Shown here in pieces: positions 2,904 to 64,000 of a stretch of DNA of 64,000 bases. Source of the DNA: Negativicutes bacterium (GTDB taxonomy: Bacteria; Bacillota; Negativicutes; UBA1444); assembly GCA_963665275.2 (NCBI GenBank), contig CAXXIN010000014.1:5430-69429 (forward strand), given 5' to 3'. Position numbers and translations under genes: made by a program. Every line of letters starts with the position of its first letter. Position 1 is the stretch's first letter. The notes below the pieces were generated by a model, which did no database searches, was not told the DNA's origin, and saw only the letters and a program-made list of their open reading frames with translations.

Positions 2904-2907
2904 TCGT

Positions 2908-3135: not shown

Positions 3136-3138
3136 TTT

Positions 3139-4248: not shown

Positions 4249-4441
4249 ATTGCCCTCCTTCTAGAGATAGTAATAGTAGTAAGTCTTGTTGATATTGTGG
4301 ATAACTTTCTGAGCGCTAGCCTGTAGTGGGTTTATGGGATATGGTTATGGTGTGGATAAACTAGTAATAATTTTCACTAGCAATTAAAATTATTTAAGTT
4401 GCATAATGTTTAGTAGATTTATCTACAGGAAATAGAGTAGA
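4249..4441. other. oriC part 2 (dnaA-dnaN spacer) with DnaA boxes
   Basis: Perfect tgtggataa (reverse complement of TTATCCACA) at 4296-4304 and 4351-4359. One-mismatch ttatctaca at 4419-4427. AT-rich flank. Confidence 0.7.
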
Positions 4442-18823: not shown

Positions 18824-18845
18824 TTTCACGAAATTGATTCAGCGA

Positions 18846-18887
18846 GGACACCCGTTTTCTCTAGAAAGCGTGGTGTCTATTTTTTTT
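18846..18887 (+). terminator. Intrinsic terminator after the bactofilin gene
   Basis: aggacac...gtgtct stem followed by a T8 run. Confidence 0.6.
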
Positions 18888-18989
18888 ATGCAAAAAGGAG
18901 GAAAATGCGAGCTTTTGACTAACCTTTTTAAACAGAGAGATACGAAGTGCTTTGGTAATGTAAAGAGTAAGGAAGAAAGCGAGAATCAT

Positions 18990-47676: not shown

Positions 47677-47822
47677 GTTGTGCCTCCTCTGCCGATATTT
47701 CATGACAAAAGGCCCGTCCGTCTTCACGGCGGGCCTTTCGGCACAGAACATATTTTGCTAATAGAATCGGTTTGTTGGGCGCGCCCATGCAGTTGCAGGT
47801 TAAATAGCGCTCTAGAGCGGAT

Positions 47823-48497: not shown

Positions 48498-48588
48498 GAA
48501 AATAACCACCCTTCGAAGATAGTATATGCCTCTCGTTTATAAAAATCAATACATATCCTCACACATATTCACATGAAATTCAAAGGTA

Positions 48589-48658
48589 TTGACAGTTTTT
48601 AAACAACAGGAATAGAATAACAGCGAGCTAAAAAAATACTATCCTTAATGGATAGTAT
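48589..48658 (+). promoter_or_regulatory. Rightward promoter and palindromic operator of the switch region
   Basis: ttgaca (48589-48594), 18 nt, tagaat (48613-48618). Inverted repeat atactatcc-ttaat-ggatagtat (48636-48658). An extra half-site gatagtat at 48518-48525 lies outside this span. Confidence 0.5.
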
Positions 48659-48689
48659 GGAATGATGGGGAAACAAGGGAGGAATTGAA

Positions 48690-49163
48690 ATGAAAGCGAA
48701 AGCAAGCACAAAAGCAGTGAAAGGGAGTGGCGGCGCGGCCCTCAGGTTGGCCAAACCCGGGGAAGCGCCGGAGCCCTGCCGTATCCCTTTGAAACCAGGA
48801 ACAACAAAGCCTAGTGCGGCAGAAATGGCGTTTACGGAAGCCGCTGTCGCAAAATCAATGCTGCATACCGAACAGATCGCGCCTGGCAACAAGCTGGCCT
48901 ACAATGTCAGGGAAGCAGCGGAAGCGCTGGGGGTATCCCCCTGGTATGTGCGCGATGAGATGAATCTCGGGCGGTTGGGCTTTTCCTCCGCGCGTGGCCG
49001 CAAAATCATCCCACGCTGGGAACTGGTGCGATATCTGGAAGAATACATGCAGGGACACTCTGAAGCGGCAGGAGACGAAGAGAATACGCCACTCGTGCCA
49101 AACGACTCCGGGACCCCGTCTCTAAAGAAGGCGCTCGCAGGAAGTAAAAAAAGAATGATCTGA
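48690..49163 (+). CDS. Excisionase-family (MerR-like) HTH DNA-binding protein
   Basis: AYNVREAAEALGVSPWYVRDEMNLGRL...IPRWELVRYLE is the typical Xis-type HTH. RBS aagggagg. Confidence 0.65.
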   Translation: MKAKASTKAVKGSGGAALRLAKPGEAPEPCRIPLKPGTTKPSAAEMAFTEAAVAKSMLHTEQIAPGNKLAYNVREAAEALGVSPWYVRDEMNLGRLGFSSARGRKIIPRWELVRYLEEYMQGHSEAAGDEENTPLVPNDSGTPSLKKALAGSKKRMI

Positions 49164-49231
49164 CAGGTCAGCGGGTATGAAACAAGCTGGATCGGTCGGA
49201 TTTTTTTATGGGCAACTGCGCTGGCGGCGCT

Positions 49232-49351
49232 TGTGGATAAGCCTGTGGATAACGCTGCGTGAAGTACAAAGATTGCCGATCAGATGGACGCAGAGTGCCA
49301 GAGAGAGTGACAATGAGCGGCTATCAGAGTGACACACATTGTCACTCTCTC
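49232..49351. other. Origin-like site: two perfect DnaA boxes plus a 15-bp palindrome
   Basis: tgtggataa at 49232-49240 and 49244-49252. gagagagtgacaatg (49301-49315) pairs with cattgtcactctctc (49337-49351). (c)agagtg(a/c)c is repeated three times. Confidence 0.6.
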
Positions 49352-49523
49352 ATAGCCCGGGCCCAGTCAGCTGTAGGATGAGCGGCTCCCTAACATACAG
49401 AGAATACCTTACAGAAGAAATTACAACGGAACCTAAAGGGGACCAGCTCCAATAAGGATCAGAAAAAGGTCTGATAGAGACCCTCAGATAAAATCAAACC
49501 GATGAAAATGATGGAGAAGGAGT

Positions 49524-50195
49524 ATGGAAAATATTGCAGCGATTGTTCAAAGTCTGCTGCCGGCGAAGGGCGCCGACGGATCCTGGCAAAGAGCGAATCT
49601 GCCAGTAGCGGAACCGTCCAACAGAGCACAGCTACATCCGGATAAAGTCCCGTTCATTACTTTTCCGGTATCTATCGGCTTGTTGGAAGGAAAGCACGTC
49701 GAGGCCATGGGAATCGCCGTCTGGTGCTTTTTATGGTGCATCAATAGGGTAACCTCGGATCGCACCGATCCGGACGGAGAGCGTTGGGGTCAGGTTCTCG
49801 GCGGCTGCCGGTTCAACCATCAACGGATTGCCGATGAACTCGGGATCAGCCTGCGGGCGGTCCGTTACCAGATGGATCGTCTGAGATCAGGAGGTTACCT
49901 GCGCATTACCCGTTGCCAGGACGGGCAGCAGGTGGAAGTCCGGCACAGCATCAAATGGCTGCGCAGAAAAACTCAGGGCGCGCCAAACAGCCGGCCTGAA
50001 CTGCCACCACCCGTCACAAAACTACCGGACATAGATCCTCCTGTCAGCGTCCCGGAAGTGCTGGTGAACCCGGTGGTTTCGGTGGCAGAGGAGTCTATCT
50101 CGCCAGAGCCCGATGCTGAAACCGCCAAGGTGTTTTCTCTGGCGGAAGCCTTGCGCAGGAAACAATGGGAGCGGGAGCAAGGCTTGCGGGAATAA
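49524..50195 (+). CDS. Winged-helix DNA-binding protein, putative island replication initiator/organizer
   Basis: 223 aa. IADELGISLRAVRYQMDRLRSGGYLRI is a wHTH. It sits immediately downstream of the origin-like site. No family was recognised by eye. Confidence 0.5.
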   Translation: MENIAAIVQSLLPAKGADGSWQRANLPVAEPSNRAQLHPDKVPFITFPVSIGLLEGKHVEAMGIAVWCFLWCINRVTSDRTDPDGERWGQVLGGCRFNHQRIADELGISLRAVRYQMDRLRSGGYLRITRCQDGQQVEVRHSIKWLRRKTQGAPNSRPELPPPVTKLPDIDPPVSVPEVLVNPVVSVAEESISPEPDAETAKVFSLAEALRRKQWEREQGLRE

Positions 50196-50645
50196 AACTC
50201 CCCTCCCGCCGAAAAAGCGGGAGGGGCTGGGGGTAGGTCCGAGACCCTAGCCGACCGAGGCGATTCCGACAGGGAAAACTTCCAGTGAGCTGCCGCCACC
50301 TGCCGACACGTCGGATAATAGCCCCACGTTATGTCAACCCGAAGGGCGCGCAGCGAAAGCGAGCGGTAGACGCGTAGCGGACTACTTTTGACATAACGTT
50401 CTATTATCGGATGGGCCGGCATGACTGGGCTGAATGATGGCACCCGTTCCCCCGTCCTCCGGCAGCTACCGTGGCCGATGGATCGGGCGCGGTGGCTGCT
50501 ACCCAGGCAGCAACAGACGCTAGGCAGTAACGAGGCGTGATCCGGACCGGGGCAGTATGCGCCGGGGAGGATGACGCCGACGGGATAGGGCAGGAATCTG
50601 CGGGAGGCGATGCGGTTCCCGGCGGTCTGATGCCAAGGCGGCCCG
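50196..50645. ncRNA. Candidate structured noncoding RNA (family not recognised)
   Basis: About 450 nt with no convincing ORF; one hand-counted 60-nt line was 70% G+C. Nested long-range helices (gttatgtcaa 50328-50337 / ttgacataac 50388-50397), a gcGAAAgc tetraloop, and a terminator-like hairpin at 50200-50226 that is T-flanked only on the minus strand. Confidence 0.35.
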
Positions 50646-50684
50646 ACGAACGGCAAACGGAAGCCCGCCACGTCGGTGGCGGGC
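50646..50684 (-). terminator. Intrinsic terminator of the ankyrin gene
   Basis: gcccgccac-gtcg-gtggcgggc 9-bp perfect stem, followed on the minus strand by ttccgtttgccgtt. Confidence 0.65.
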
Positions 50685-50728
50685 TGGAGGCCGGGCTAGG
50701 GACGCAAAGCGAGATGGGGACGTTTAAA

Positions 50729-52390
50729 TTATTTGGCTCCATATTGCTTCAGATATTCTATCGTTTTCTTAAACTCAGGAATATTATATTTTTTGTCACA
50801 TTCCAGCGCATAGTCGAGAGCACTACGGCGACCCTGGTCAAGGACATGCGGATTAGCGCCCATTTCCAGCATTCGTAGGATGATTTCGGGTGGGCCGCCC
50901 CAGGCCGCGTACATCAGAGGAGTTTTCCCATATTGATCTTGCACATTAATCGCTGCGCCTCTATCCAGCAGCAAGTTCATTTTTAACCTTCTGCCACCAC
51001 CGTGCTTTGCGGCCAAAATTAGGGGAGTTCCGCCCTGATTATCCCGCGCGTTAATATCTGCGCCTGCGTCAAGCAATATCAGCATTTTCGTGTTGTTATC
51101 CATAGTCGTTGATACCATCCACATCAAAGGGGTTCTTCCTTCATCATCCCGCGCATTGACTGCAGCACCCATTTCAACAAGTAATTTTGCGATATCCGGC
51201 TTATAGGCAGCGCTAGCCTGCATTAATACCGTCGTTCCTTTGTTGTTTTTCGCATGAATATCAGCACCGTGATCAATCAACATTTTTGACAAATCGGAAG
51301 TCCCGTTTTTCGCGGTAGCATGCAGCAACGGCGTGGATCCTGTTTCGTCCCTGGCGTTGATATCTGCGCCTGCCTCCATCAGATATTGAATTTTGTTCAT
51401 GCTTTCTATTTGGCTGGGCCTATGACTACTTTGATACCAACGTACTGCTTCAATAAATGCATTGTTTTTGTCCGCCGGCGAAAAACGAATCCCTTTGGAC
51501 AACAAATCTTTGACTGTTTCCAAACTCCCCCGCCCGGCCGCGTAGATCAGAGCCGTTTTCCCGCTGGCATCTTCAGCCTGGATATCGGCGCCTTGGGCAA
51601 GCAATAAATCCACGGCATCCACTTTTCCCGTTTCGGCAGCACTCATAAGTGCGATTTGACCTTGGCTGGTTTTTGAATTGACATTTGCACCGTTTTCCAA
51701 CAACAGTTTCATAGCTTCGAGATTTCCTCTGTTACTGGCTACCATCAGCAGCGTATTTTCTGGAAGGGAGATGGTTTCCACGCCAGCGAAAGGCTTCTGT
51801 CTATATATCTTTACCGTCTTTCCACCACCATCAAGGTTTTTCGCATTCACATCCGCGCCTTTGGCGATCAAGAGTCTGGCCAGATCCAGGTTGCCTTGCT
51901 CCAGCGCAATTCCGAGGGGGGCTTCCCACTGGTTGTTTCTTTCGTTGATGCCGATTCCGCCATAGATCAAGGGCTTGGCCAGGAATGGATATTCTTTGAC
52001 GGCCAGTGCCGTTGGCGTTCGGACTCCTTGGGCACCCAGCAAGCAACTGAGGATAGCGCAAGCAAGAGTGAATCCTACGAAAATTTTCGCTCGACGTTTG
52101 GCTTTCGCATCTTCGGTTAAGGACCGGTAACGGGAGAGCATGTGGCCGCTGACAGGGCAGAGGACTATAACAATAAAAACTAAACATAACACGAACCACT
52201 CTTCCAAATTCCAAGGCTCATGTTGAGCGATAAAAGCCCAGACAAAATAAGCGATAGGTAAAAGCACAAAGAATCGAACAACGGTATACCCATCGAAAAT
52301 CCGTAGATTTTTCAGCGTAGCAATCATAAAGACCAACCAGCAAACAAATACAACACTGAGAAGAGGTGCGATCTTCACTAGCAGCAGCAT
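50729..52390 (-). CDS. Membrane-anchored ankyrin-repeat protein (4 predicted TM segments plus at least 9 ANK repeats)
   Basis: Start MLLLVKIAPLL after the RBS aaaggag. Hydrophobic segments occupy the first ~150 aa. Then repeated G.TPLM.AA..G....LL..GA..N units (for example GRTPLMWMV..., GGTPLILAAKHGG, GKTPLMYAAWGG). Confidence 0.88.
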   Translation of the reverse strand: MLLLVKIAPLLSVVFVCWLVFMIATLKNLRIFDGYTVVRFFVLLPIAYFVWAFIAQHEPWNLEEWFVLCLVFIVIVLCPVSGHMLSRYRSLTEDAKAKRRAKIFVGFTLACAILSCLLGAQGVRTPTALAVKEYPFLAKPLIYGGIGINERNNQWEAPLGIALEQGNLDLARLLIAKGADVNAKNLDGGGKTVKIYRQKPFAGVETISLPENTLLMVASNRGNLEAMKLLLENGANVNSKTSQGQIALMSAAETGKVDAVDLLLAQGADIQAEDASGKTALIYAAGRGSLETVKDLLSKGIRFSPADKNNAFIEAVRWYQSSHRPSQIESMNKIQYLMEAGADINARDETGSTPLLHATAKNGTSDLSKMLIDHGADIHAKNNKGTTVLMQASAAYKPDIAKLLVEMGAAVNARDDEGRTPLMWMVSTTMDNNTKMLILLDAGADINARDNQGGTPLILAAKHGGGRRLKMNLLLDRGAAINVQDQYGKTPLMYAAWGGPPEIILRMLEMGANPHVLDQGRRSALDYALECDKKYNIPEFKKTIEYLKQYGAK

Positions 52391-52521
52391 AGCAGCTCCT
52401 TTCCAATTGTTGCTATTTTCCGCAGGGTATTTCTGGGTTCCTGCGGACAAAAAGCTTAATTATATAGGACGATTGTCCTGTTGTGGACATTGAGTTATTA
52501 GTGCGAGGTCAGAGCGGCCCG

Positions 52522-52560
52522 ACGAACGGCAAACGGAAGCCCGCCACGGATGTGACGGGC
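52522..52560 (-). terminator. Intrinsic terminator (near-copy of the one after the ankyrin gene)
   Basis: gcccgccac-ggat-gtgacgggc stem (one mismatch), followed on the minus strand by ttccgtttgccgtt. Confidence 0.6.
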
Positions 52561-52593
52561 ATTACGGATCGACGCCGGCAGCATACAGCTCGC

Positions 52594-52788
52594 TCATTGG
52601 CGGGCGATACGCAGGCGAACCTGTTGGTCGATTTCGCGGCGGGCTTCCGATAGCGAAAGATGGCCGGACTCCACGCGGGCGAATATGTGGCGGCTCCATT
52701 CCGGAACTGCGGCATTCTCCAGTCGCAAATCGGCGCGGGCCTGGCGCATGGCTTCCGCCACCGGCAGGGTTGTAATGATCTTTTTCAT
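52594..52788 (-). CDS. VbhA-like (Fic-antitoxin family) small protein
   Basis: MKKIITTLPVAEAMRQARADLRLENAAVPEWSRHIFARVESGHLSLSEARREI aligns by eye, without gaps, to Bartonella VbhA as I recall it (...SQRLEGLEPDPQVVAQMERVVVGELETSDVIKDL). LEG/LEN, G+17, L+19 and S+22 are conserved. Confidence 0.6.
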   Translation of the reverse strand: MKKIITTLPVAEAMRQARADLRLENAAVPEWSRHIFARVESGHLSLSEARREIDQQVRLRIARQ

Positions 52789-52819
52789 CGGCAACACGCC
52801 CTTTCTGGCAATAATGTGA

Positions 52820-52863
52820 TATCAAAGTAGTATCAAAGTAGTATCAAAATAGTATCAAAGTGC
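52820..52863. repeat. Four tandem 11-bp direct repeats (TATCAAARTRS)
   Basis: tatcaaagtag, tatcaaagtag, tatcaaaatag, tatcaaagtgc. They lie in the divergent spacer between the VbhA-like gene and the antirepressor gene. Confidence 0.85.
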
Positions 52864-52941
52864 TACTACTTTTATAGTATATCATGCCGCAGAGCTGCCA
52901 TGGAGGAGGGCAGTCAGACGGCGAAAAAAGGAGGCTTTCCC

Positions 52942-53790
52942 ATGCAAAAAAATCAATCACTCGAACGCGTATTCCACTTTCAAAACAAGCCGGTGCGAAC
53001 GCTGGACTTCTTTGGCTCGCTCTGGTTCGTGGCGAAAGATGTCTGCGAAGTTCTCCGAATTCGAACGAATTCCATCCGGTGCGTCCTGGATGAAGATGAG
53101 GTGCGAGCGTTCAATCCCAATGACAATAGTATTGACATTGGGCAAGAGGAAGTCGGGCATGGCGGACGCAACATGCTGGTGGTAAGCGAACCCGGACTCT
53201 ATTCTCTCGTATTGAAATCGCGCAGGCCTGAAGCGCGGCAGTTCAGGCGCTGGATTACCCACGAAGTTATTCCGGTGCTGCGGGCGGCCGGCAGCTACCA
53301 AATGCCAGCTCCTGCCGGGTCGGGTCAACTGTTGCAGTTTTCCCGGCGGGATCTGCTCAATCTGGCGGTGGAGGCGGAAACCGAATGCGAGGAGCTGCGC
53401 GGTGTCGTGGTCGACATGTTGCCCAAGGTTGAATTTTACGACCGGGTGGCGGACACGAGCGCGTCGTTTTCGCTCGGAGAAACGGCCAAGATGATGGAGA
53501 TCCCCGGTTTCGGACGCAACAACTTGATCCGGTTCCTGCGGGATGGGGCCGGAGTCCTGATGGCCGACAACGTGGCCAAGCAGAAATATATCAACCGAGG
53601 CTATTTTCATATCGTACAGAGGGACTACTGCGCGCCGGACGGTACGCCGCGCGTGAAAGCGGTGACGCGGGTCTATGAAAAAGGCGTCGATTATATCCGA
53701 CACCTTCTGGATGACGGTGAATACTTGGTTGCTGCAAGCGGTAGCGCAGACAGCAGCCATAGTAGATCCGCATCCGAAGGATGGAGGTAA
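52942..53790 (+). CDS. Phage antirepressor (Bro-N domain plus KilAC domain)
   Basis: MQKNQSLERVFHFQNKPVRTLDFFGSLWFVAKDVCEVL (Bro-N) and a C-terminal KilAC-like segment ...FYDRVADTSASFSLGETAKMM...YINRGYF. RBS aaggagg. Confidence 0.88.
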   Translation: MQKNQSLERVFHFQNKPVRTLDFFGSLWFVAKDVCEVLRIRTNSIRCVLDEDEVRAFNPNDNSIDIGQEEVGHGGRNMLVVSEPGLYSLVLKSRRPEARQFRRWITHEVIPVLRAAGSYQMPAPAGSGQLLQFSRRDLLNLAVEAETECEELRGVVVDMLPKVEFYDRVADTSASFSLGETAKMMEIPGFGRNNLIRFLRDGAGVLMADNVAKQKYINRGYFHIVQRDYCAPDGTPRVKAVTRVYEKGVDYIRHLLDDGEYLVAASGSADSSHSRSASEGWR

Positions 53791-53902
53791 GTGGTGGCAA
53801 GCGCCAGCGCAGACAGTGGTCATAGTAGATCCGCATCCGGAATGAAGTGAAGGACGAATGAGATCTGGACCGCGCGAACGCGGGCCGGTAGGGTGGAAAC
53901 GT

Positions 53903-53938
53903 AAAACAGCCGCCGCAGGAGAATGCGGCGACTGTTTT
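53903..53938 (+). terminator. Intrinsic (bidirectional-looking) terminator
   Basis: aaaacagccgccgc / gcggcgactgtttt stem flanked by A and T runs. Confidence 0.7.
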
Positions 53939-54098
53939 GAAGAAGAGGATGATACTCAGGGGCAAGCAAAGCGACCAGACAGCGCTCGCCAGTATCTACG
54001 GGTGCATATCCGTTGATACTTCATTATCTTACACCTGATGCAAGAGGAAGGACAACTTGGATTTTCCTTGGTATCGGGCAAAAAGGGAGGCATATTTT

Positions 54099-54707
54099 AT
54101 GAAAATCTGTATTGATCCGGGGCATAGCGGACCGGTAGAGCCGGGAGCTTGCGCTGGCGGCGCGACAGAGGCGGCGATTAATCTGCAGGTGGCAAAGATT
54201 CTGGGCAAGATGCTCGAGAATGCCGGGCACAAAGTAGTGTTGACGCGGGTTGATGACATCGAGGACATTACCTTGACGTGGCGCTGCGAGGTGGCGTGGA
54301 AGTTCCGGGCGGATCTTTTTATCTGTATCCACTGCAATGCTCATGAAGATAAGGAGGCGCACGGAACGGAGACCTGGTATTACGAGACCAGCGAGCGGGG
54401 GCACAATCTGGCGCGCTGCATCCAAGCGGCTATCGTCGCCAACTGCGGCACGACCGATCGGGGTGTGAAGTCTAAAGATGACTGGACCGTGCTGCAGGGT
54501 ACCACCTGTCCGGCGGTATTGGTGGAGTTGGCATTCATCACGAATGACGAGGAGCGCGCCCGGTTGACCGATCCATTTCTGCAGCGGCAGTTCGCGGTGG
54601 GAATCAGCAACGGGATCGAACAGTTCGCCAAGGGCGGCTCGCTGTTCGGCGGCGTGGCGGAGAGGCGACAAAGCTACGATATACGGGCCTTCGCGCGGAG
54701 GCGTTGA
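54099..54707 (+). CDS. N-acetylmuramoyl-L-alanine amidase (Amidase_3 family)
   Basis: MKICIDPGHSGP..., HCNAHEDKEAHGTETWY, VLVELAFITNDEE. RBS aagggagg. Confidence 0.9.
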   Translation: MKICIDPGHSGPVEPGACAGGATEAAINLQVAKILGKMLENAGHKVVLTRVDDIEDITLTWRCEVAWKFRADLFICIHCNAHEDKEAHGTETWYYETSERGHNLARCIQAAIVANCGTTDRGVKSKDDWTVLQGTTCPAVLVELAFITNDEERARLTDPFLQRQFAVGISNGIEQFAKGGSLFGGVAERRQSYDIRAFARRR

Positions 54708-56588: not shown

Positions 56589-56619
56589 GCGGGCTACAAA
56601 TAAGTAGCCTGCTTTTTTT
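56589..56619 (+). terminator. Intrinsic terminator
   Basis: gcgggctac / gtagcctgc stem then a T7 run. Confidence 0.65.
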
Positions 56620-56775
56620 GTCTAAGTAGTATTTGATGGCAGGATTACGAAAGGTTTTCGGGAATCGATTGAACGAGTACCCGAAATTGCAAGTTGAGTA
56701 TTTTTCCCACATTGGCTGATGAGAGTGACAGACGATTCCGCTTATTCTACTAATGGGTACAAAAAGTAATAAAGA

Positions 56776-56812
56776 ATTTTATTTTTAGTATTGTAAATAC
56801 TAAAAATAAAAT
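56776..56812. repeat. AT-only 37-bp palindrome upstream of the R-M operon
   Basis: attttatttttagtat-tgtaa-atactaaaaataaaat, with 16-nt perfect arms, 42 nt upstream of the first operon ATG. Confidence 0.8.
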
Positions 56813-56853
56813 GTATGATGTCATCAGATGGTCGATCATGGAGGAAATGGAAA

Positions 56854-58464
56854 ATGAATGCGAAAGCATTAGAATCTTTTGTCCAATTGTTATACATACG
56901 AAACATGGTGGATCGGGAGCAGATCTTGTTGGAAGCTGTTCGAGTCGTTCGGACTTTTCAACAGCTGCACAACCGACAAGAAACCATTTCCGACACACCG
57001 GAAGATAAAGAACTCTTGTTTGCTGAAATGCAAAGTGTTTCGGAGTCTTCCGAATTGGGACACTTTCCCGGTGATCGGGAATTTTTCTACAACCTCTTTG
57101 CGGTTGCATGTGAACTCGACCTGATAGAGTTGCTGGTCAAGTCCGGCCGAAACGACCGCACAGGAATGCTGGCGCCCGCGTATCTGGTCGAATATTTGGC
57201 CGGTGGGATTACAAAAGACACCGCCCGGGTTTTCGTGGCAGAAGCTGAAAAATTTGCCGAAGGTCTGCAAAAATTAATAGCAGAGAATCCCAAAGTGGAA
57301 TTTACATTAACGACGGAAAAGAAAATACATTATCTCCTCCTGGTAACGGCTTTTTCACAAAACCATAATGTCCGGATACTGAATCAATCGATTTATCGTG
57401 AACTGTTACATAAAGACAGCTATGATTTATTGCTCACCATTCCATCGTTTGGCAATCGTTATAACTCGGAGGAATCCAACAATAATTTTATCACTCGAGA
57501 CTCGGAATGCATCGCCGTGGAAAACCTCCTCCGCCATCTTGGCGAGCGCGGAAAACTGGCCGCAGTGTTGCCTGCCAAAGTAACCTTCGCCAGCGGTCCG
57601 GTTCAGGAGTTTAGACAATGGATCATGGCCGACTATCACCTGGAAGCCATATACTCTCTGCCAGAAGGAATCTTCCGGCCCTATGCTGGCATCAAGACGT
57701 ATTTAATGGTTTTTGACGCAAAAACGACGATAGGGGTTACAGTCGGCAAAATAATCGATGAGGACTATAGACTGCTAGTCAAACAAAAGCAATGGATTTC
57801 CGACGTAGAATTCAACGGGCACGAAGATTGGCGGACAGAAATATATCTCGCCGATGATAACGAAGCCATCCAGAAGTTTAAAACCTCCGGTCTCGAAAAA
57901 ATCAAACTCAAGGATGTGGCAGAAATCTTCCGGGGCAAGTCCGTGCTCAAAGATGATCTGCAGCCAGGAAAAATAAGAGTCCTGAATATATCCAACATGG
58001 ACGAAGGCGAACTCATCTTCGACGAAATGGACACCATCCACGAAGAAATTCGCAAGGTGAAACGGTATCAACTGGAATCTGGCGATATCGTGCTAACCTG
58101 TCGGGGGACATCAAACAAAGTCGCCGTCTTCCCGGAAACAGAGCATGTGGTCATTGCCTCGGCAAACATCATCGTGCTGCGTATCAAAGAAAAGATCGCG
58201 CCTCAATATCTGAAAATATTCCTGGATAGTCCGATCGGACAAATGATGATCAAGAGTTTTCAACGGGGAACCACGATGATGAACATCAACCCCAACGACA
58301 TCGGCGAAATGGAGATTCCGCTGCTGCCCATGGAAAGACAACAAAGTCTCGTTCGGCAGTTTCTGGCAGAACAGGAACGATATCGGCGGGAAAAAGCGGA
58401 AATTGAACAGCGATGGGAAAAAGAACGCTCGGAACTATACAATAATTTTGTAAGGGGATGCTAA
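56854..58464 (+). CDS. Degenerate N6-adenine MTase-like domain fused to a single HsdS-type target recognition domain
   Basis: 536 aa. The MTase-fold landmarks are present, but motif I reads [10 protein letters not shown] and motif IV reads TIPSFG where NPPF/Y is expected. The C-terminus is a Methylase_S-like TRD plus a coiled-coil helix. The stop is 1 nt before the hsdM ATG. Confidence 0.8.
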
Positions 58465-58465
58465 G

Positions 58466-60004
58466 ATGGCGGAGAATGCGAATGGTGCAACACTTGGCTT
58501 TGAAGAAAAACTGTGGCAGGCTGCGGACAAAATGCGCAACAATATGGATGCGGCCGAATACAAACATGTTGTATTGGGCCTACTGTTTTTGAAATACATT
58601 TCCGACGCATTCGAAGAAAAATACGAAGAGTTGAACAAGGATGCACTGTCTGATCCAGAAGACCGAGACGAATATACGGCAGTAAATATTTTCTGGGTCG
58701 CCAAAGAAGCCCGCTGGAACTTTATCAAGGAAAGTGCAAAAAGCCCGAAAATCGGTCAGATCATCGATGAAGCCATGGTGGCCATCGAGAAAGATAATTC
58801 CAATCTCAAAGGGGTACTGCCAAAAGATTATGCCCGGTCCACGCTGGACAAAACCCGGCTGGGTGAACTGATCGATATTCTTTCCTTCAATATAGGGGAT
58901 AAGGAGAGCCGGTCGCAGGATATCTTGGGCCGAGTCTACGAATACTTCCTCTCCAAATTTGCAAGCGCCGAAGGTAAAAACGGCGGTGAATTTTATACGC
59001 CGCAGTGCGTAGTAAAACTGCTGGTGGAAATGATCGAGCCGATGAAAGGGAGAATCTATGACCCCTGCTGCGGATCAGGCGGCATGTTCGTGCAAAGCGA
59101 GCGCTTCCTGAGTGCGCATAGTGGCAAGCGCGGCGATATTTCGGTATACGGGCAGGAATCCAATCCCACGACCTGGCGGCTGTGCAAGATGAATCTGGCC
59201 ATTCGAGGCATCGATGGCAAGCTCGGCGACTACAATGCCGATTCCTTCCATAATGACCTGCACAAAAGTCTGAAGGCGGACTATATCCTGGCGAATCCCC
59301 CCTTCAACATCAGCGACTGGGGCGGCGCGAAACTGACCGAGGATGTCCGCTGGAGCGGCTACGGCATACCGCCGGCCGGTAACGCAAACTACGCCTGGAT
59401 TCTGCACATGCTCTGGCATTTGGCTCCCAGCGGCATTGCTGGATTTGTCCTGGCCAACGGTTCCATGTCGACGTCAACGACGAGTGAAGGTGAAATCCGA
59501 AAACAGTTGGTGGAAAAGGACAACGTCGACTGCATCGTGACCCTGCCGGGGCAGCTGTTCTATTCGACGCAGATTCCGGTATGTCTGTGGTTTGTGACCA
59601 AGAATAAGGCGGCGAAGGGACACCGCAGCCGCAATGGCGAAATCCTGTTCATCGACGCGCGGAAACTGGGCACCATGGCGGACCGGACCCATAAGGAATT
59701 TTATGACGAGGATATTAAAAAGATTGCCGATACCTACCATTCCTGGCGCGGTGAAGAAGGGACCGGAGAGTATGCGGATGTCAAAGGTTTCTGCAAAGCA
59801 GCGAAGCTGGAAGAAGTCCGGGAACACGAATATATCCTGACGCCGGGGCGATATGTGGGGATCGAAGACGTGGAGGAAGACGCCGAGCCGTTCGAGGAGA
59901 AGATGACGCGCCTGACGGGGGAATTGGCCGAGATGTTTGCCAAGTCGCGGCATTTGGAAGGCGAGATTCGGCAGCGGCTGGGGGCGATCGGGTATGAGTT
60001 CTGA
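58466..60004 (+). CDS. hsdM: Type I restriction-modification system methyltransferase subunit
   Basis: HsdM N-terminal domain ([34 protein letters not shown]), motif [11 protein letters not shown], motif IV LANPPFN. Confidence 0.95.
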
Positions 60005-60033
60005 AAAGGAAAGATTAGTATTGGGATGTGATT

Positions 60034-61242
60034 ATGTTGAATGAAAAAAACACGGTGTGGAAAGACACGGTGCTTGGTATATTTATTTCCATTCAACGGG
60101 GTCATGATCTGCCAGAGCAAAACCGCAATAGTGGTGAAATTCCAATAATCGGATCCTTCGGAATTACTGGCTTTCATAATAAATCCATAGCTCAAGGTCC
60201 CGGAGTAACTATTGGTCGAAGTGGCGCGTCCATGGGTGTTGTGTCTTATTCCGACAAAAATTATTGGCCGCTAAATACCGTTTTATATGTCACAGATTTC
60301 CATGATAATGATCCTAAATTCGTTTATTACCGCTTAAAAACGATTGATTTTACAATATATAATTCTGGCAGTGCGCAACCATCATTAAATCGAAATTATA
60401 TATATTCGGTTCCATTATGCATTCCAAATAAAAACGAGCAACGTGCCATCGCAGCCACCCTCTCCGCCCTCGACGACAAAATCGAAATCAACAACCGCAT
60501 CAACAAAACCTTGGAAGAAATGGCCCAGGCCCTCTTCAAGCGATGGTTCGTCGATTTCGAGTTTCCGGACGAAAATGGCTTGCCGTACAAGTCCTCCGGC
60601 GGGGAGATGGAAGAGAGCGGACTGGGGCCGATTCCGAAGGGGTGGAAGGTTGAATCACTCGATAGTATCGCGGATTATTTAAATGGACTTGCTATGCAAA
60701 AATATCGACCTGAAGGCGAAGAGTTTTTACCTGTTATTAAGATTCGTGAACTCAATCAAGGGAAACCTGATGGACAAAGCGATAAAGCCAGCCCCAATAT
60801 TGATTCTAAGTACATTGTTAATGATGGTGATGTTTTATTTTCATGGTCGGGAAGCCTAGATGTGAAAATATGGTGCGGAGGTAAAGGCGGTTTAAACCAA
60901 CATTTGTTTAAAGTGACATCTGATCGATATGAAAAATGGTTTTACTATTTGTGGACCAAGCACCATCTTGAAAAATTTCGCGGAATTGCACAGGATAAAG
61001 CAACTACCATGGGACACATACAAAGAAAACACCTTAAAGAATCTTTGGTAGATGTTCCTGCGCAAGATGTTTTGGGGAAAATTAATTCGATAATGCGGCC
61101 GATTTTTGACCTTTATATCACAAGAGAAATTGAAGCAGCGACCTTGGTGGCAATAAGAGACACCCTATTACCCAAACTTATCAGTGGCGAAATCCGTATG
61201 GATAGCTCATTTGCGGAGGACATCGGTAATGGAGAAAGTTAG
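60034..61242 (+). CDS. hsdS: Type I restriction-modification system specificity subunit (two TRDs)
   Basis: Two TRDs separated by a central conserved helix (EQRAIAATLSALDDKIEINNRINKTLEEMAQALFKRWFVDFEFP), plus a distal helix (TLLPKLISGEIR). Confidence 0.93.
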   Translation: MLNEKNTVWKDTVLGIFISIQRGHDLPEQNRNSGEIPIIGSFGITGFHNKSIAQGPGVTIGRSGASMGVVSYSDKNYWPLNTVLYVTDFHDNDPKFVYYRLKTIDFTIYNSGSAQPSLNRNYIYSVPLCIPNKNEQRAIAATLSALDDKIEINNRINKTLEEMAQALFKRWFVDFEFPDENGLPYKSSGGEMEESGLGPIPKGWKVESLDSIADYLNGLAMQKYRPEGEEFLPVIKIRELNQGKPDGQSDKASPNIDSKYIVNDGDVLFSWSGSLDVKIWCGGKGGLNQHLFKVTSDRYEKWFYYLWTKHHLEKFRGIAQDKATTMGHIQRKHLKESLVDVPAQDVLGKINSIMRPIFDLYITREIEAATLVAIRDTLLPKLISGEIRMDSSFAEDIGNGES

Positions 61243-62506
61243 AATTGAATCAATTGGTGATTTCGTGGAAATATTAAGCGGTCTCCGAACACTCTTGGCG
61301 GAAGAAGGCAACGACAAAATTGCTTTCTTCCGGGGGCAAAAAAATTCCGGCTGGGAAGAGATTTATCCGAGTGTCTTTCGCGCCCCATATTTGATGGCTG
61401 AAAATGAATTATATTACAATCTGTCGATGAAATGCCCAGAAGCAATACCAGCTAATTTTTCGATTATAGATAAACTGGTGCTTATGCAGCATTATGGATT
61501 ACCCACGCGACTTCTTGATGTTACAACCAATCCTTTAGTCGCTTTATTCTTCGCTTGCCAGAAAAACACCGAACGAGTACCAGCGTCTGAGAACTGTGAA
61601 ATGAGTCATGAAGGCTGCTTTCGGGAAATCGAAACAGACGGAGAAATCCTTGTTTTACGTGATTATCGTCCTCAACAAACCGGATTTGAGAGAGCAAGCG
61701 TTATTGCTGCATTGGCAGAAATTAATTATCAGTTTACCCTGGGCGAGTTAAAAATGATCATAGATCGGCGAGGGTTAGGGACGTATTCAATATCAAGTTT
61801 GTCCGATATGTTGCAGCAAAGCTTGCCAATAAACACAAGAATGAATAACGAAAGAATTAAGAGACAATCAGGAGCGTTTATTATTTGCGGAACGCATCTG
61901 AATTTTGAAGATACTAACTCTGACGATTCTGTGGCGGTGAAGAAAGCAATTAATTTGCGGACCCGATTTGAACAAGACGCTGGGGTACGCTACGTGGTTG
62001 CGTGGGATAAGAAAGAGCAAATATTGGAAGAGCTTGATTTCATAGGAATCAATGAATCCTTCCTTTATCCGGAAATAGAGTATCAGTCCAAGTATATTAG
62101 AGAGCATCAAATAAGGAATATCCAGTTTGATAGCGGGATCGATGGCGCTGAGCGAACGAAATTAGCAGAAGAGCTAGAAGAAGTGAATTTATATGTATCG
62201 CCTGAAAACCTTGAACGTTTTGCAGAAAGAGCGAAGATAGAAATACTTCTTATATTACAAGGCGTTGAGCAGAAAGAAATAATAACAGATTATATTGGCG
62301 AGATACTAAGAAACAACTTGGATGTGGATTGGATAAATAGAGAGGCCAGCAAGGCCAAAATTGCAGTAGCGATTAAGCGCGTATTCAGGGAACACACAAC
62401 GCTCGATTTTGTTCGAGTGAAAAAACTTATAGATGACATTCTTTTAATTGTTGAAGATTGCTATCATAAATGCGCAGCTTCACAGGAGGTACCTGAAAAT
62501 GTTTGA
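61229..62506 (+). CDS. FRG domain protein with an unassigned C-terminal region of ~200 aa
   Basis: IAFFRGQKNSGWEEIYPSVFR and LVLMQHYGLPTRLLDVTTNPLVALFFA are FRG-domain landmarks. The start overlaps the hsdS end by 14 nt. Confidence 0.85.
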   Translation: MEKVRIESIGDFVEILSGLRTLLAEEGNDKIAFFRGQKNSGWEEIYPSVFRAPYLMAENELYYNLSMKCPEAIPANFSIIDKLVLMQHYGLPTRLLDVTTNPLVALFFACQKNTERVPASENCEMSHEGCFREIETDGEILVLRDYRPQQTGFERASVIAALAEINYQFTLGELKMIIDRRGLGTYSISSLSDMLQQSLPINTRMNNERIKRQSGAFIICGTHLNFEDTNSDDSVAVKKAINLRTRFEQDAGVRYVVAWDKKEQILEELDFIGINESFLYPEIEYQSKYIREHQIRNIQFDSGIDGAERTKLAEELEEVNLYVSPENLERFAERAKIEILLILQGVEQKEIITDYIGEILRNNLDVDWINREASKAKIAVAIKRVFREHTTLDFVRVKKLIDDILLIVEDCYHKCAASQEVPENV

Positions 62507-63213
62507 AAAAATTGATCAGAACAAGGCTCGCATTGACGCGCTGCGTCCGATGCAGGGCAGCTTGCTCACACAGATTCGAGACTATTACAAAATCGGCCTG
62601 ACCTACTCCAGCAATGCGCTCGAAGGCAACTCCCTCACGGAAACGGAACCAAAGTTTTGTTGGAGGACGGCCTGACTGTCGGCGGCAAGCCGATCAGGGA
62701 CTACTACGAGGCGACGGGTCACGCCAAGGCCTATGACTATATCTATACGCTCATGCAAGGCGAAGAACTGGGCGAAGTGCAGCTGAAAACCATCCACCGT
62801 CTGTTTTATTCCCTGATTGATGAAGCGCAGGCCGGGCAGTACCGCAAAGAAAGGGTCATTATCTCTGGGTCGAAGTATCCGGTGCCGCACCGGAGAAGGT
62901 CCAAGCACTCATGAACGGTTTTTTTCACTGGTTGTCTACGCAGGAAAAGCTGATGCATCCGGTGGAATTCGCCGCGAAGGCGCACAAGGAATTTGTCTTT
63001 ATCCATCCTTTTGTGGACGGTAACGGCCGGGTGGCGCGGCTGCTGATGAATCTTTGCCTGTTGCGGCAGGGGTACACGATGGCGATCATTCCGCCGGTTC
63101 TGCGAGGCGACTACATCGCTCTGCTGGAAAAAGCGCATGAGGACGACACCGCCTTTGTGAACTTCATTGCCGAACGGGTGGAAGAAACGCAGAAGGATTT
63201 GCTGCGGCTTTAA
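62499..63213 (+). pseudogene. Fic family protein (class II, intrinsic inhibitory helix), two 1-nt frameshifts
   Basis: Three ORF pieces (62448..62675, 62657..62914, 62911..63213). N-terminal SNALEG inhibitory motif and active site HPFVDGNGRVARLLMN. Shifts near 62648 and 62885. The start overlaps the FRG stop by 8 nt. Confidence 0.85.
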
Positions 63214-63265
63214 AATAGCGGGGTCTTCTGGACAGGGTCTGATTTTGTTGGGGGGGTGCGATTCG

Positions 63266-64000
63266 TGACGGCGTATAATTTCAATGAATCCGAATTGGAG
63301 CAGGCGGTGCTGGAGTGCTTCCAGGAACTCTATTACGACATTCAGCAGGGACCGGAGATTTCACCGGGCGGTGCTTATCCGAACGGGACGACTACAACCT
63401 GGTGATTCTGCAAGACCGTCTCATGAATGCGCTCCGGCGAATCAATCCGAAAATGCCGACGGAAGCATTGGAGGACGCCTATCGCCAGGTCGTCATCGCC
63501 AAAAGCCCCAGCCTGATTGTGAATAATAAGGAGTTCTATCGCCTTATCACCGACGGAGTCAACGTAGAAGTCCGGCGGGCGGATGGATCCATCAAGACGG
63601 ACAAGGTGTGGTTGTTCGATTTTTCGGATGAAGGAACGGACAATAACGATTGGCTGGCCGTCAACCAATACACCGTGATTGAAAATCATAACCATCGCCG
63701 GCCTGATGTGATCGTTTTCATCAATGGGATTCCGCTGGCGGTGATTGAATTGAAGAGCACCTCCGATGAAAATGTGGGGGTTACCGAAGCCTTCCGGCAG
63801 TTTGAGACCTATAAAAACGAAATTCCCTCTCTGTTCATCTACAATTCATTTCTGGTGATCAGTGATGGCGTGAATGCAAAAGCGGGAACCCTGACCGCCA
63901 ATGAAGATTGGTTCATGCCCTGGCGGACCATCGATGGCGTGGAGGTTGCCCCAACAGCGCTGCCGCAGCTGGAAGTGCTGATCAAGGGAATGTTTGATAA
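63266..64000 (+). pseudogene. hsdR: Type I restriction enzyme R subunit, N-terminal part (continues off-window), 1-nt frameshift near 63378
   Basis: VTAYNFNESELEQAVLECF..., then in another frame ERDDYNLVILQDRLMNALRRINPKMP...RRPDVIVFINGIPLAVIELKS (nuclease motif). That frame is open to the window end. Confidence 0.88.

What the first reader, a model, noticed from the sequence alone, without database searches (positions are those of the whole stretch)
56854..58464. Catalytically dead MTase-like domain fused to a half-HsdS TRD, translationally coupled to a canonical hsdM
**Seen:**
- A 536-aa ORF stops 1 nt before the hsdM ATG.
- Its centre carries gamma-class N6-adenine MTase fold landmarks ([12 protein letters not shown]; [10 protein letters not shown]; [12 protein letters not shown]; [25 protein letters not shown]).
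- SAM-binding motif I reads [10 protein letters not shown], where the neighbouring HsdM has [10 protein letters not shown].
- The catalytic tetrapeptide reads IPSF, where HsdM has NPPF.
- The last ~190 aa form one HsdS-type TRD plus a coiled-coil helix (...[25 protein letters not shown]...).

**Inference:** this is a sequence-specific DNA-binding pseudo-methylase made from R-M parts. It could re-target, sequester or sense the adjacent M2S1/R2M2S1 complex, or act as a decoy or restriction-alleviation factor. I do not know of a described function for this architecture.
Basis: partly seen in the sequence, partly recalled or inferred. Interest (0 to 1): 0.75.

Follow-up and report, generated by a model that had tools for sequence, protein, structure and literature searches.

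The report
Dead methylase turned operon repressor
The first gene of this restriction-modification operon encodes a methyltransferase-plus-DNA-reader fusion that has lost its chemistry and most likely acts as the operon's own repressor, binding a conserved palindrome over its promoter.

Summary
ORF 56854-58464 (536 aa) ends 1 nt before hsdM. It has a gamma-class methyltransferase fold with the SAM-binding glycine loop deleted and NPPF replaced by IPSF, followed by one HsdS-type TRD and a long C-terminal helix.

This is not a local accident. Hundreds of 520-560-aa homologues (21-97% identity) all lack both motifs. In 61 of 67 genome loci with enough sequence, the gene sits immediately upstream of hsdM, usually followed by hsdS and hsdR.

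Unlike ordinary HsdS, the TRD is the most conserved part. Every readable upstream region (76 of 76) carries the palindrome TTTAGTAT-N4/5-ATACTAAA. It is usually centred on the -35 box of a near-consensus promoter; the window copy is at 56783-56805. All 62 exact copies in 1.24 Mb of loci lie there, against about 0.8 expected by chance.

Streptococcal Esub1 (PDB 8VSQ) is a homodimeric half-S protein homologous to this TRD. It carries the same GTAT-N4-ATAC core in its own promoter in 5 of 6 species.

Best explanation, by inference only: a homodimeric autorepressor ("controller") of the type I R-M operon, analogous but unrelated to RptR and C proteins. The decoy or sequestration ideas are neither supported nor excluded.

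The parts
56589..56622 (+). Intrinsic-terminator-like hairpin with a T-run. It closes the upstream unit, so the operon begins after it.
   Evidence: 9-bp stem, 6 GC pairs, T7 tail
56783..56805 (.). Operator palindrome TTTAGTAT-TGTAA-ATACTAAA (TAGTA-N7-TACTA). It is the only exact copy in the 64-kb window.
   Evidence: Family consensus is TTTAGTATTGACATACTAAA, with GTAT invariant and ATAC 94-100% conserved.
56791..56819 (+). Sigma-A-type promoter: -35 TTGTAA (56791-96, at the centre of the palindrome), 17-nt spacer, -10 TATGAT (56814-19).
   Evidence: In 69 N4-type loci the central hexamer is TTGACA in 46, and a -10 with at most 1 mismatch to TATAAT lies 16-18 nt downstream in 59.
56842..56846 (+). 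Shine-Dalgarno GGAGG, 7 nt before the ATG.
56854..58464 (+). Gene 'X': pseudo-methyltransferase / half-HsdS fusion, 536 aa.
56854..57183 (+). N-terminal helical domain (aa 1-110). It carries the invariant FPGDRxFF motif (F71, P72, D74, F78) and aligns weakly with the end of HsdM_N.
57184..57843 (+). Rossmann-like pseudo-MTase domain (aa 111-330).
57223..57258 (+). Remnant of motif I: [12 protein letters not shown]. Strand beta-1 runs straight into a helix and the glycine loop is deleted. E132 and K133 are invariant in the family.
57439..57450 (+). Remnant of motif IV: IPSF in place of NPPF. P197 and F199 are invariant. The N/D position is hydrophobic or variable in all homologues.
57871..58329 (+). 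Single HsdS-type target recognition domain (aa 340-492). It is the most conserved region of the protein.
58042..58068 (+). Helix EEIRKVKRY (aa 397-405; R400, K401, R404 and Y405 are invariant). It is homologous to the Esub1 'insertion helix' that the phage protein paratox binds. Proposed DNA-reading element.
58330..58452 (+). Long C-terminal helix (aa 493-533), homologous to the Esub1 dimerisation helix and to the HsdS conserved region.
58466..60004 (+). hsdM, an intact type I methyltransferase ([12 protein letters not shown]).
60028..61242 (+). hsdS, full length with two TRDs.
63256..64000 (+). 5' part of hsdR, which runs off the window. It has a -1 frameshift near 63376-63380.

Best explanation
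Gene X encodes a homodimeric, sequence-specific DNA-binding protein built from an inactivated HsdM-like domain and half an HsdS.

**Proposed mechanism**
- Two monomers pair through the C-terminal helix, as Esub1 does.
- This places two identical TRDs on the two half-sites of the palindrome (A/G)GTAT-N4/5-ATAC(T/C). In the window this is TTTAGTAT-TGTAA-ATACTAAA at 56783-56805.
- The palindrome is centred on the -35 hexamer of the only promoter of the X-hsdM-hsdS-...-hsdR operon.
- Bound X should therefore occlude sigma-A region 4 and repress its own operon.
- The expected behaviour is negative autoregulation: a burst of expression from a near-consensus promoter when the operon enters a naive cell, then shut-down to a low steady level.
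- The pseudo-MTase moiety can no longer bind SAM or methylate. It probably survives as part of the DNA clamp, since the conserved aromatic residues of motifs IV and VIII are retained. It may also serve as a sensor or interaction domain.

**Shown here**
- The domain architecture and the motif loss.
- The family-wide gene order.
- The conservation of the TRD.
- The existence, exclusivity and promoter position of the palindrome.
- The palindrome core's co-occurrence with the TRD in two unrelated gene contexts.

**Inferred**
- Dimerisation.
- Direct binding of X to the palindrome.
- The sign of regulation (repression).
For: **(1) The TRD does not behave like an ordinary HsdS TRD.**
- It is the most conserved region of the family: mean column conservation is 0.73, against 0.50-0.59 for the other regions.
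- Ordinary HsdS TRDs are hypervariable. The HsdS proteins in the same loci are only 21-64% identical to the window's HsdS.
- This implies a fixed target.

**(2) The palindrome is always there, and only there.**
- All 76 readable regions upstream of X (75 genome loci from the scan, plus the window) carry TAGTAT-N4/5-ATACTA with at most 2 mismatches; 62 are exact.
- All 62 exact copies in the 1.24 Mb of genome loci lie just upstream of X.
- Shuffled sequence gives about 0.8 copies.
- The 64-kb window has exactly one copy.

**(3) The geometry fits a half-S dimer.**
- The half-sites are 4-5 bp, separated by N6/N7 (TAGTA-N6-TACTA).
- The central bases vary freely when they do not double as the -35 box (L029, L033, L075, L078).

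**(4) The palindrome sits on the promoter.**
- The palindrome centre is TTGACA in 46 of 69 N4-type sites.
- A -10 hexamer with at most 1 mismatch to TATAAT lies 16-18 nt downstream in 59 of 69.

**(5) Distant homologues keep the arrangement.**
- Members at 24-35% identity to the window protein head different operon types (X-M1-M2-S-R, X-R-M1-M2, X-174aa-M-S-R, and a non-RM cluster).
- They keep the same GTAT-N4-ATAC core.
- The operator overlaps the -35 box in four of five of these loci and lies about 22 nt upstream of it in L081.
- The most divergent member has a related but different palindrome, TCGTATA-N6-TATACGA.

**(6) Reverse test.**
- I searched metagenome and viral collections for the 18-mer operator alone.
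- In 85 of 118 testable hits, an X gene starts 39-82 nt downstream in the promoter's orientation.

**(7) Independent context.**
- Esub1 is a stand-alone TRD-plus-helix homologue (E 1e-31).
- It is a crystallographic and SEC-MALS homodimer, and its authors already suspected a repressor (PMC11754733).
- It has GTAT-N4-ATAC 30-40 nt upstream of its own start in 5 of 6 Streptococcus species, with no R-M genes attached in most.

**(8) Only X fits the role.**
- X, M, S and R are the only genes conserved in the loci, and upstream genes are not conserved.
- Only X has a conserved DNA reader.

**(9) Precedent for the logic.**
- RptR is a first-ORF autorepressor of type I R-M operons that binds palindromes in its own promoter (PMC12255303).
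Against: - There is no experimental evidence of binding or regulation for X or for Esub1. The Esub1 authors did not identify a DNA site.
- In five loci the palindrome lies about 22-30 nt upstream of a separate -35 box (L029, L033, L075, L078, L081). That position fits activation or another mode as well as repression.
- Esub1 appears to read the same core without any MTase-like domain, so the model does not explain why X keeps 330 extra conserved residues.
- No indel in the C-terminal helix accompanies the N4 versus N5 spacer difference.
- 33 of 118 operator hits found by sequence alone are not followed by X. Some of these look like promoters of other genes. The site could belong to a wider regulon or have another reader.
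- One Esub1 locus (L227) lacks the site.
Confidence: 0.7

Rival explanations
1. **Decoy or sensor of anti-restriction proteins.** The X dimer mimics the M2S1 methyltransferase core. It soaks up or senses DNA-mimic inhibitors such as Ocr, ArdA or paratox-like proteins. This would either protect the real enzyme or, combined with the regulator model, derepress the operon when phage inhibitors displace X from its operator.
For: - The best structural match is the V. vulnificus M-halfS fusion MTase, which was crystallised with Ocr in its DNA groove (7EEW).
- The homologous TRD of Esub1 is bound on its putative DNA-binding face by the phage protein paratox (PMC11754733).
- The paratox-contacting helix is the most conserved element of X (RKxKRY).
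- A decoy built from HsdMS has a precedent in Ronin (bioRxiv 10.1101/2023.04.06.535777).
Against: - A pure sponge would not need a strictly conserved TRD or a conserved palindrome on its own promoter.
- No toxin or effector gene is conserved in the loci.
- Ronin's defining parts, RonA and the absence of hsdR, are not present here.
- No interaction data exist.
Confidence: 0.12
2. **Structural or regulatory subunit of the restriction complex.** X assembles with HsdM and/or HsdR through its HsdM-like moiety. It would form an alternative, methylation-incompetent specificity module, or hold HsdR back until the genome is methylated (a built-in restriction alleviation factor).
For: - X is tightly linked to one HsdM/HsdR clade, whose HsdM is 56-96% identical across loci.
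- The intergenic gap is 1-18 nt or the genes overlap, which is compatible with translational coupling.
- The HsdM-like fold, including part of the N-terminal domain, is retained.
Against: - A restriction complex aimed at a fixed, unmethylatable site would be self-toxic unless the site were absent. Instead the site is present once, in the promoter.
- Distant X genes head operons of different type I subfamilies, and also a non-R-M cluster.
- Esub1, which has the same TRD, showed no clear HsdM binding.
- None of this explains the operator.
Confidence: 0.1
3. **Active but unconventional methyltransferase.** X would be a type IIG- or CamA-like orphan MTase that methylates the palindrome, with regulation arising through methylation of its own promoter.
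For: - The overall fold and domain order match CamA, M.TaqI and M.BseCI.
- The P-x-F of motif IV and the LPEGxF motif are conserved.
Against: - The SAM-binding glycine loop is deleted, and the catalytic Asn/Asp is replaced by a hydrophobic residue. This holds in every one of about 100 homologues inspected, down to 21% identity.
- Pfam matches only the C-terminal half of N6_Mtase.
- Canonical MTases in the 1.84-billion-protein search match only residues about 175-300.
Confidence: 0.03

Closest known systems
Esub1 (SpyM3_0890, Streptococcus pyogenes; PDB 8VSQ/8VSR; PMC11754733)
   Same: - It is homologous to X residues 338-529 (E 1e-31; Foldseek TM 0.85 on the target).
- It has one TRD plus a C-terminal helix that forms a homodimer.
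- It has the same 'insertion helix' (RxhxR / RKxKRY).
- Its sequence is conserved rather than hypervariable.
- I find the same GTAT-N4-ATAC palindrome in its own promoter in 5 of 6 species.
   Different: - It is 198 aa and stands alone, with no MTase-like domain.
- It is not the first gene of an R-M operon; it sits next to ArAE and DUF2130 genes.
- Its function and DNA site were unknown to its authors.
RptR, first-ORF autorepressor of type I R-M islands in Gammaproteobacteria (PMC12255303)
   Same: - It is the first gene of a type I R-M operon.
- It is a homodimer.
- It binds palindromes overlapping its own promoter.
- The regulator and its site are conserved together.
- It is also found in front of some non-R-M modules.
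   Different: - It is an unrelated small all-alpha protein.
- Its site is a 6-bp TAGCTA repeat over the -10 box.
- It occurs in a different phylum.
- X is a 60-kDa pseudo-enzyme whose DNA reader is a TRD.
C (controller) proteins of type II R-M systems
   Same: They autoregulate R-M genes through palindromic operators in the promoter of their own operon.
   Different: - They are small HTH proteins that both activate and repress.
- They belong to type II systems.
- They have no homology to X.
M-halfS fused type I-like methyltransferase of Vibrio vulnificus YJ016 (PDB 7EEW), and single-chain MTase+TRD enzymes (CamA, M.TaqI, BpuSI)
   Same: They have the same domain order (N-terminal helical domain, gamma-class Rossmann fold, TRD) and are the best structural matches.
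   Different: They are active enzymes with an intact motif I and (N/D)PP(F/Y). X has neither.
Ronin (HsdMS decoy plus RonA toxin; bioRxiv 10.1101/2023.04.06.535777)
   Same: It is a derivative of type I R-M parts put to a non-restriction use.
   Different: - Ronin keeps an ordinary HsdM and HsdS.
- It lacks hsdR and needs the 61-aa RonA effector.
- None of this applies to X.

Membership tests
HsdM / gamma-class N6-adenine DNA methyltransferase (active enzyme) | Motif I glycine-rich SAM-binding loop (DPxxGxGG / FxGxG) | tested here: not met
   The loop is deleted in the profile-profile alignment. The family consensus at this position is ILITEAEK.
HsdM / gamma-class N6-adenine DNA methyltransferase (active enzyme) | Motif IV (N/D)PP(F/Y) | tested here: not met
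   X has IPSF. The family pattern is h-P-x-F-G with no Asn or Asp.
HsdM / gamma-class N6-adenine DNA methyltransferase (active enzyme) | Rossmann-like MTase fold | tested here: met
   AF2 model with pLDDT 88.5; Foldseek matches 7EEW, CamA and M.TaqI with probability 1.00.
HsdM / gamma-class N6-adenine DNA methyltransferase (active enzyme) | SAM binding and methyl transfer | not testable with these tools
   This needs biochemistry.
HsdS (type I specificity subunit) | Pfam Methylase_S TRD | tested here: met
   Residues 346-500, E 1.3e-13; many PADLOC Specificity_I models.
HsdS (type I specificity subunit) | Two TRDs and two conserved helical regions in one chain | tested here: not met
   X has one TRD and one helix. 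The operon has its own full-length HsdS.
HsdS (type I specificity subunit) | TRD hypervariable between systems | tested here: not met
   The TRD is the most conserved region of the family.
Esub1-like half-S proteins | TRD with insertion helix plus C-terminal dimerisation helix | tested here: met
   phmmer E 1e-31 over residues 338-529; the insertion helix and the Y/W positions of the dimerisation helix are conserved.
Esub1-like half-S proteins | Stand-alone protein of about 200 aa | tested here: not met
   X carries about 335 extra N-terminal residues.
Esub1-like half-S proteins | Homodimer in solution | not testable with these tools
   Inferred from homology only.
R-M transcriptional controllers (C proteins, RptR) - functional class | Encoded at the head of the R-M operon with a conserved palindromic site in its own promoter | tested here: met
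R-M transcriptional controllers (C proteins, RptR) - functional class | Sequence or fold homology to C proteins (HTH) or to RptR | tested here: not met
   No HTH or related family was found in Pfam or NCBIfam. The fold is MTase plus TRD.
R-M transcriptional controllers (C proteins, RptR) - functional class | Demonstrated binding to the site and effect on transcription | not testable with these tools
   This needs EMSA or footprinting and reporter assays.
Ronin decoy system | RonA small toxin linked to hsdMS, usually without hsdR | tested here: not met
   No conserved small gene is present, and hsdR is found in 47 loci.

The most novel reading that the evidence does not exclude
X is a one-component sensor-regulator whose DNA-binding groove imitates that of the M2S1 methyltransferase.
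- Phage DNA-mimic anti-restriction proteins (Ocr, ArdA or paratox-like) would bind X and pull it off its operator.
- That would derepress the whole R-M operon exactly when it is being inhibited.
- By the same logic, paratox binding to Esub1 in Streptococcus pyogenes would derepress the Esub1 regulon.
- More broadly, the HsdS TRD fold would be a previously unrecognised class of transcription-factor DNA-binding domain, with a fixed operator conserved across Bacillota.
Probability: 0.15. Interest if true: 0.9.

Novelty: new variant of a known kind. Interest (0 to 1): 0.75.

Why it matters
- **Regulation of type I systems.** Type I R-M systems are generally thought to be controlled after translation. 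Only RptR, described in 2025 in Gammaproteobacteria, is a known dedicated transcriptional regulator. This finding predicts a second, unrelated and widespread controller, mainly in Bacillota with a few MAG contigs labelled as other phyla.
- **An unusual origin.** The controller is made by inactivating the system's own methyltransferase-specificity module. That is a clear case of a pseudo-enzyme exapted as a transcription factor.
- **Annotation.** It assigns a concrete role and a concrete DNA site to hundreds of genes now annotated as 'restriction endonuclease subunit S' or 'N-6 DNA methylase'.
- **Esub1.** It gives an immediately testable DNA target, TAGTAT-N4-ATACTA in its own promoter, for a protein with a solved structure but unknown function. 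That would link the phage protein paratox to derepression of a host operon.
- **Practical uses.**
  - The operator/X pair could serve as a compact orthogonal repressor system.
  - Knowing about the controller matters when type I systems are cloned or removed to domesticate Bacillota.

Tried and rejected
- **Direct comparison with the neighbours.** BLASTP of X against the neighbouring HsdM and HsdS gave nothing significant. Profile methods were needed.
- **Curated libraries.** NCBIfam and PADLOC have no dedicated model for X. They return only generic S-subunit and MTase_I hits, including MADS mad5 far below its cut-off. MADS membership was rejected.
- **Ronin** was considered and rejected because its parts differ.
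- **Spacer versus helix length.** I looked for an indel in the C-terminal helix that would explain the N4 versus N5 spacer, as the TAEL repeat does in EcoR124I/II. There is none.
- **Literature.** Searches for the operator sequence, for pseudo-methyltransferase plus specificity subunit, and for HsdS-like repressors found no prior description. They turned up only the Esub1 paper's speculation and the analogous RptR.
- **Recent decay.** I tested whether motif loss is recent by going to homologues at 21-35% identity. They are all dead too.
- **Sites without X.** The 33 operator hits not followed by X were inspected. Several are plainly chance matches inside coding sequence, while others look like promoters of unrelated genes. 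This was left unresolved.
- **Not possible here.** Multimer or protein-DNA structure prediction, and a genome-wide operator census in a complete genome.
Full report
**1. What is in the window**

The ORF at 56854-58464 (+) encodes 536 aa. The mechanical ORF begins at an upstream ATG at 56815. The start at 56854 is preferred for three reasons:
- It is preceded by GGAGG at 56842-46.
- It matches the N-termini of the homologues.
- It lies downstream of the predicted promoter.

The stop codon TAA (58462-64) is followed by one base and then the ATG of hsdM at 58466. Downstream genes are:
- hsdM, 58466-60004, with intact DPCCGSGG and NPPF.
- hsdS, 60028-61242, with two TRDs.
- An FRG-domain gene, 61184-62506 (PADLOC PDC-S15).
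- A broken Fic-like gene.
- The 5' end of hsdR from 63256, with a -1 frameshift.

A strong terminator-like hairpin at 56589-56622 precedes the locus.

**2.

Domain evidence:
- Pfam matches only the C-terminal half of N6_Mtase (residues 177-292, E 3e-8) and Methylase_S (346-500, E 1e-13).
- A 47-sequence alignment gave a confident AlphaFold2 model (pLDDT 88.5, pTM 0.83).
- The model's best PDB matches are single-chain MTase+TRD proteins: the V. vulnificus M-halfS fusion 7EEW, CamA, BpuSI and M.TaqI. For the C-terminal 190 residues the best match is Esub1.

Profile-profile alignment against the operon's own HsdM clade gives these correspondences:

| HsdM | X | Meaning |
|---|---|---|
| GEFYTP | G-MLAP | motif X region retained in outline |
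| [19 protein letters not shown] | [10 protein letters not shown] | glycine loop deleted |
| ANPPF | TIPSF | catalytic Asn lost |
| TLPGQLFY | SLPEGIFR | motif retained |

**3. It is an old, large family, not a local wreck**

- The search for homologous proteins returned 414 hits. The best 120 are almost all 520-550 aa and cover the full length at 40-97% identity. They come from Negativicutes, Clostridia, Desulfitobacteriia, Paenibacillus and Thermoactinomycetes, and are annotated only as 'restriction endonuclease subunit S' or 'N-6 DNA methylase'.
- An exhaustive HMMER search with residues 1-335 found 89 50%-identity clusters at E < 1e-10.
- Beyond those, canonical MTases match only residues about 175-300.
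- In the close set (A1) and the distant set (A2, down to 21% identity), every member lacks the glycine loop and the Asn/Asp of motif IV. P197 is invariant in both sets. F199, E132 and K133 are invariant only in the close set A1.
- The domain has therefore been catalytically dead for a long time, yet remains under purifying selection.

**4. Genomic context**

A genome scan returned 80 loci.
- In 61 of 67 loci with at least 1.6 kb downstream, X is followed on the same strand by hsdM, in most of them after a gap of 11-18 nt or an overlap. This HsdM is 56-96% identical to the window's.
- In 43 of 54 loci with at least 8 kb downstream, hsdM, hsdS and a 1,050-1,070-aa hsdR are all present.
- Sometimes RhuM-like or other genes are inserted.
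- Nothing upstream is conserved.
- X is thus the first gene of a conserved four-gene operon.

More distant X genes head other arrangements:
- X-M1-M2-S-R.
- X-R-M1-M2.
- X-174aa-M-S-R.
- In one case a non-R-M cluster (WHD protein plus AAA ATPase).

**5. The key finding: a conserved TRD and a conserved operator**

The TRD:
- Ordinary HsdS TRDs are hypervariable. Here the TRD is the most conserved part of the protein (0.73 mean column conservation, against 0.50-0.59 elsewhere).

The palindrome:
- Inspecting the upstream regions revealed a striking palindrome.
- In the N4-type sites the consensus is 5'-TTTAGTAT-TGAC-ATACTAAA-3', with G, T, A, T of the left half invariant and ATAC at 94-100%.
- All 76 readable regions have it within 2 mismatches, and 62 exactly.
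- The 62 exact occurrences in 1.24 Mb of loci all lie just upstream of X. Shuffles give about 0.8.
- The window has a single exact copy at 56786-56802, or 56783-56805 with flanks. It uses the 5-nt centre typical of Negativicutes.

Position on the promoter:
- The centre of the palindrome is the -35 hexamer, TTGACA in 46 of 69 sites.
- A -10 hexamer with at most 1 mismatch to TATAAT follows after 16-18 nt in 59 of 69.
- In the window this is TTGTAA-17-TATGAT.
- Where the palindrome lies upstream of a separate -35, its four central bases vary freely (TAAG, TATA, AAAA, CATA). That is expected for a bipartite site read only at its outer half-sites.
- The geometry TAGTA-N6/7-TACTA is what a half-S homodimer would recognise. 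This comparison rests on established knowledge of truncated EcoR124I and EcoDXXI S subunits, not on a test here.

**6. Three further tests**

*(a) Distant X proteins.* Members at 24-35% identity to the window protein keep the core:
- TTGGTAT-TTTC-ATACCAA
- TTTAGTAT-TGAC-ATACTAAA
- TTTGGTAT-TGAA-ATACAAAA
- TTAGTAT-TTAC-ATACTAA
- AGGTAT-TTAC-ATACCA

The most divergent member has a different but related palindrome, TCGTATA-TTGCTG-TATACGA, again over a -35-like hexamer.

- In 85 of the 118 with at least 300 nt downstream, an X gene starts 39-82 nt away in the promoter's direction.
- The remainder are a mix of obvious chance matches in coding sequence and some promoter-like sites in front of other genes.

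*(c) Independent context.* The C-terminal 190 residues of X are homologous (E 1e-31) to Esub1 of S. pyogenes.
- Esub1 is a 198-aa half-S protein shown by crystallography and SEC-MALS to be a homodimer.
- It is bound on its putative DNA-binding 'insertion helix' by the phage protein paratox.
- It has no known function or DNA site (PMC11754733).
- In six Streptococcus species the esub1 gene sits among unrelated genes (ArAE, DUF2130).
- Five of the six have GTAT-N4-ATAC 30-40 nt upstream of the start codon, overlapping the -10 region. In S. pyogenes the sequence is TGATAGTATCTAAATACTATAA.
- The only thing shared by the X and Esub1 loci is the TRD-helix module and the GTAT-N4-ATAC core of this palindrome.

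**7. Mechanism**

The best-supported reading is as follows.
- X dimerises through its C-terminal helix.
- It reads the two half-sites with its TRDs. The invariant RKxKRY helix, residues 397-405, is the likely reading head.
- By sitting on the -35 box of a near-consensus promoter, it represses the operon it belongs to.
- This is negative autoregulation: full expression on arrival in a naive cell, then low steady-state expression.
- The logic is known for R-M systems, from C proteins and, for type I, from RptR (PMC12255303). The protein is unrelated to either.

Binding, dimerisation and the sign of regulation are all inferences. The pseudo-MTase half remains unexplained, for these reasons:
- Esub1 seems to manage without it.
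- It is nevertheless conserved, with its own invariant motifs (FPGDRxFF, EAEK, P-x-F, LPEGxFRP).
- It may complete a DNA clamp, perhaps still flipping an adenine into the retained aromatic pocket.
- It may act as a sensor or interaction domain for HsdM or HsdR, or for DNA-mimic anti-restriction proteins.

**8. Rivals**

- **Pure decoy or sponge, or restriction-complex subunit.** Neither explains the conserved TRD-operator pair. No effector gene is conserved. Distant X genes serve different operon types.
- **Active unconventional MTase.** This is very unlikely given the deleted SAM loop and the missing catalytic residue throughout the family.
- **Combined model.** X as a repressor that phage DNA mimics displace is attractive. 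It is suggested by 7EEW-Ocr and Esub1-paratox, but it is untested.

**9. Novelty**

- No curated family (Pfam, NCBIfam, PADLOC) and no paper in the held library describes this protein or its operator.
- The regulatory logic is a known kind. The molecular solution appears to be new: a dead methyltransferase fused to half a specificity subunit, used as the operon's transcription factor.
- It also supplies a testable DNA target for Esub1.

**10. Caveats**

- Everything about function is computational.
- The loci are mostly MAG contigs.
- The library search cannot exclude a description in subscription journals.
- In this particular window hsdR and the Fic-like gene carry frameshifts. These may be real decay or assembly errors.

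Noticed in passing
window 63256-64000: hsdR begins here with a GTG start and is 88-91% identical to the hsdR of L002. It carries a -1 frameshift near 63376-63380, where the expected CCGGAACGG reads CCGAACGG. Restriction may therefore be inactive in this genome, or the frameshift is an assembly error.
   Followed up: partly
window 62499-63210: A Fic/DOC-family gene with the HPFVDGNGR motif is split across three reading frames. The homologous gene in L002 is intact at 240 aa.
   Followed up: partly
window 61184-62506: An FRG-domain protein matches the PADLOC candidate defence family PDC-S15 (E 1e-74) and has a weak T1RH-like C-terminal match. It is inserted between hsdS and the Fic-like gene and is absent from the close relative L002.
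   Followed up: no
window 1785-5845 and the composition profile: This is the chromosomal origin region. recF, a dnaN-sized ORF and dnaA all lie on the minus strand, and the GC skew changes sign at about 4-6 kb. selA and selB are at 18768-22312.
   Followed up: no
window 46339-54707: A small integrated element lies immediately upstream of the R-M locus. It carries a tyrosine integrase (46339-47751, -), a cI/LexA-like S24 repressor (47823-48509, -), a 573-aa ankyrin-repeat membrane protein (50729-52450, -), a BRO-N/ANT antirepressor (52900-53790) and an Amidase_3 (54057-54707).
   Followed up: no
L092-L095, L226 (Streptococcus esub1 loci): Esub1 (PDB 8VSQ, function unknown) has a GTAT-N4-ATAC palindrome 30-40 nt upstream of its start in 5 of 6 species. 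L094 and L095 also have sites inside esub1 (+447) and inside the downstream DUF2130 gene (+1424 and +1466).
   Followed up: partly
L081, L086, L087: Distant X homologues head two-methylase (M1-M2) type I systems. In L086 and L087 one HsdM is fused to an N-terminal ADP-ribosylglycohydrolase domain (about 805 aa).
   Followed up: no
L090 474-4536: A distant X homologue with the operator AGGTAT-TTAC-ATACCA is followed by a winged-helix protein and a 540-aa AAA ATPase, not by R-M genes. The regulator is therefore not restricted to R-M cargo.
   Followed up: no
L162, L172, L183, L191, L201 (metagenome hits to the operator 18-mer): Exact operator copies with promoter-like context lie in front of genes other than X: an AAA ATPase, an AbrB/SpoVT-like protein and small phage-like proteins. 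L183 has two operators in tandem. These may indicate a regulon or further readers.
   Followed up: partly
16 of the 80 genome loci (e.g. L017, L019, L027, L047): A RhuM-like gene of about 355 aa is inserted between hsdM and hsdS in 13 of these loci, and between X and hsdM in L063 and L065.
   Followed up: no
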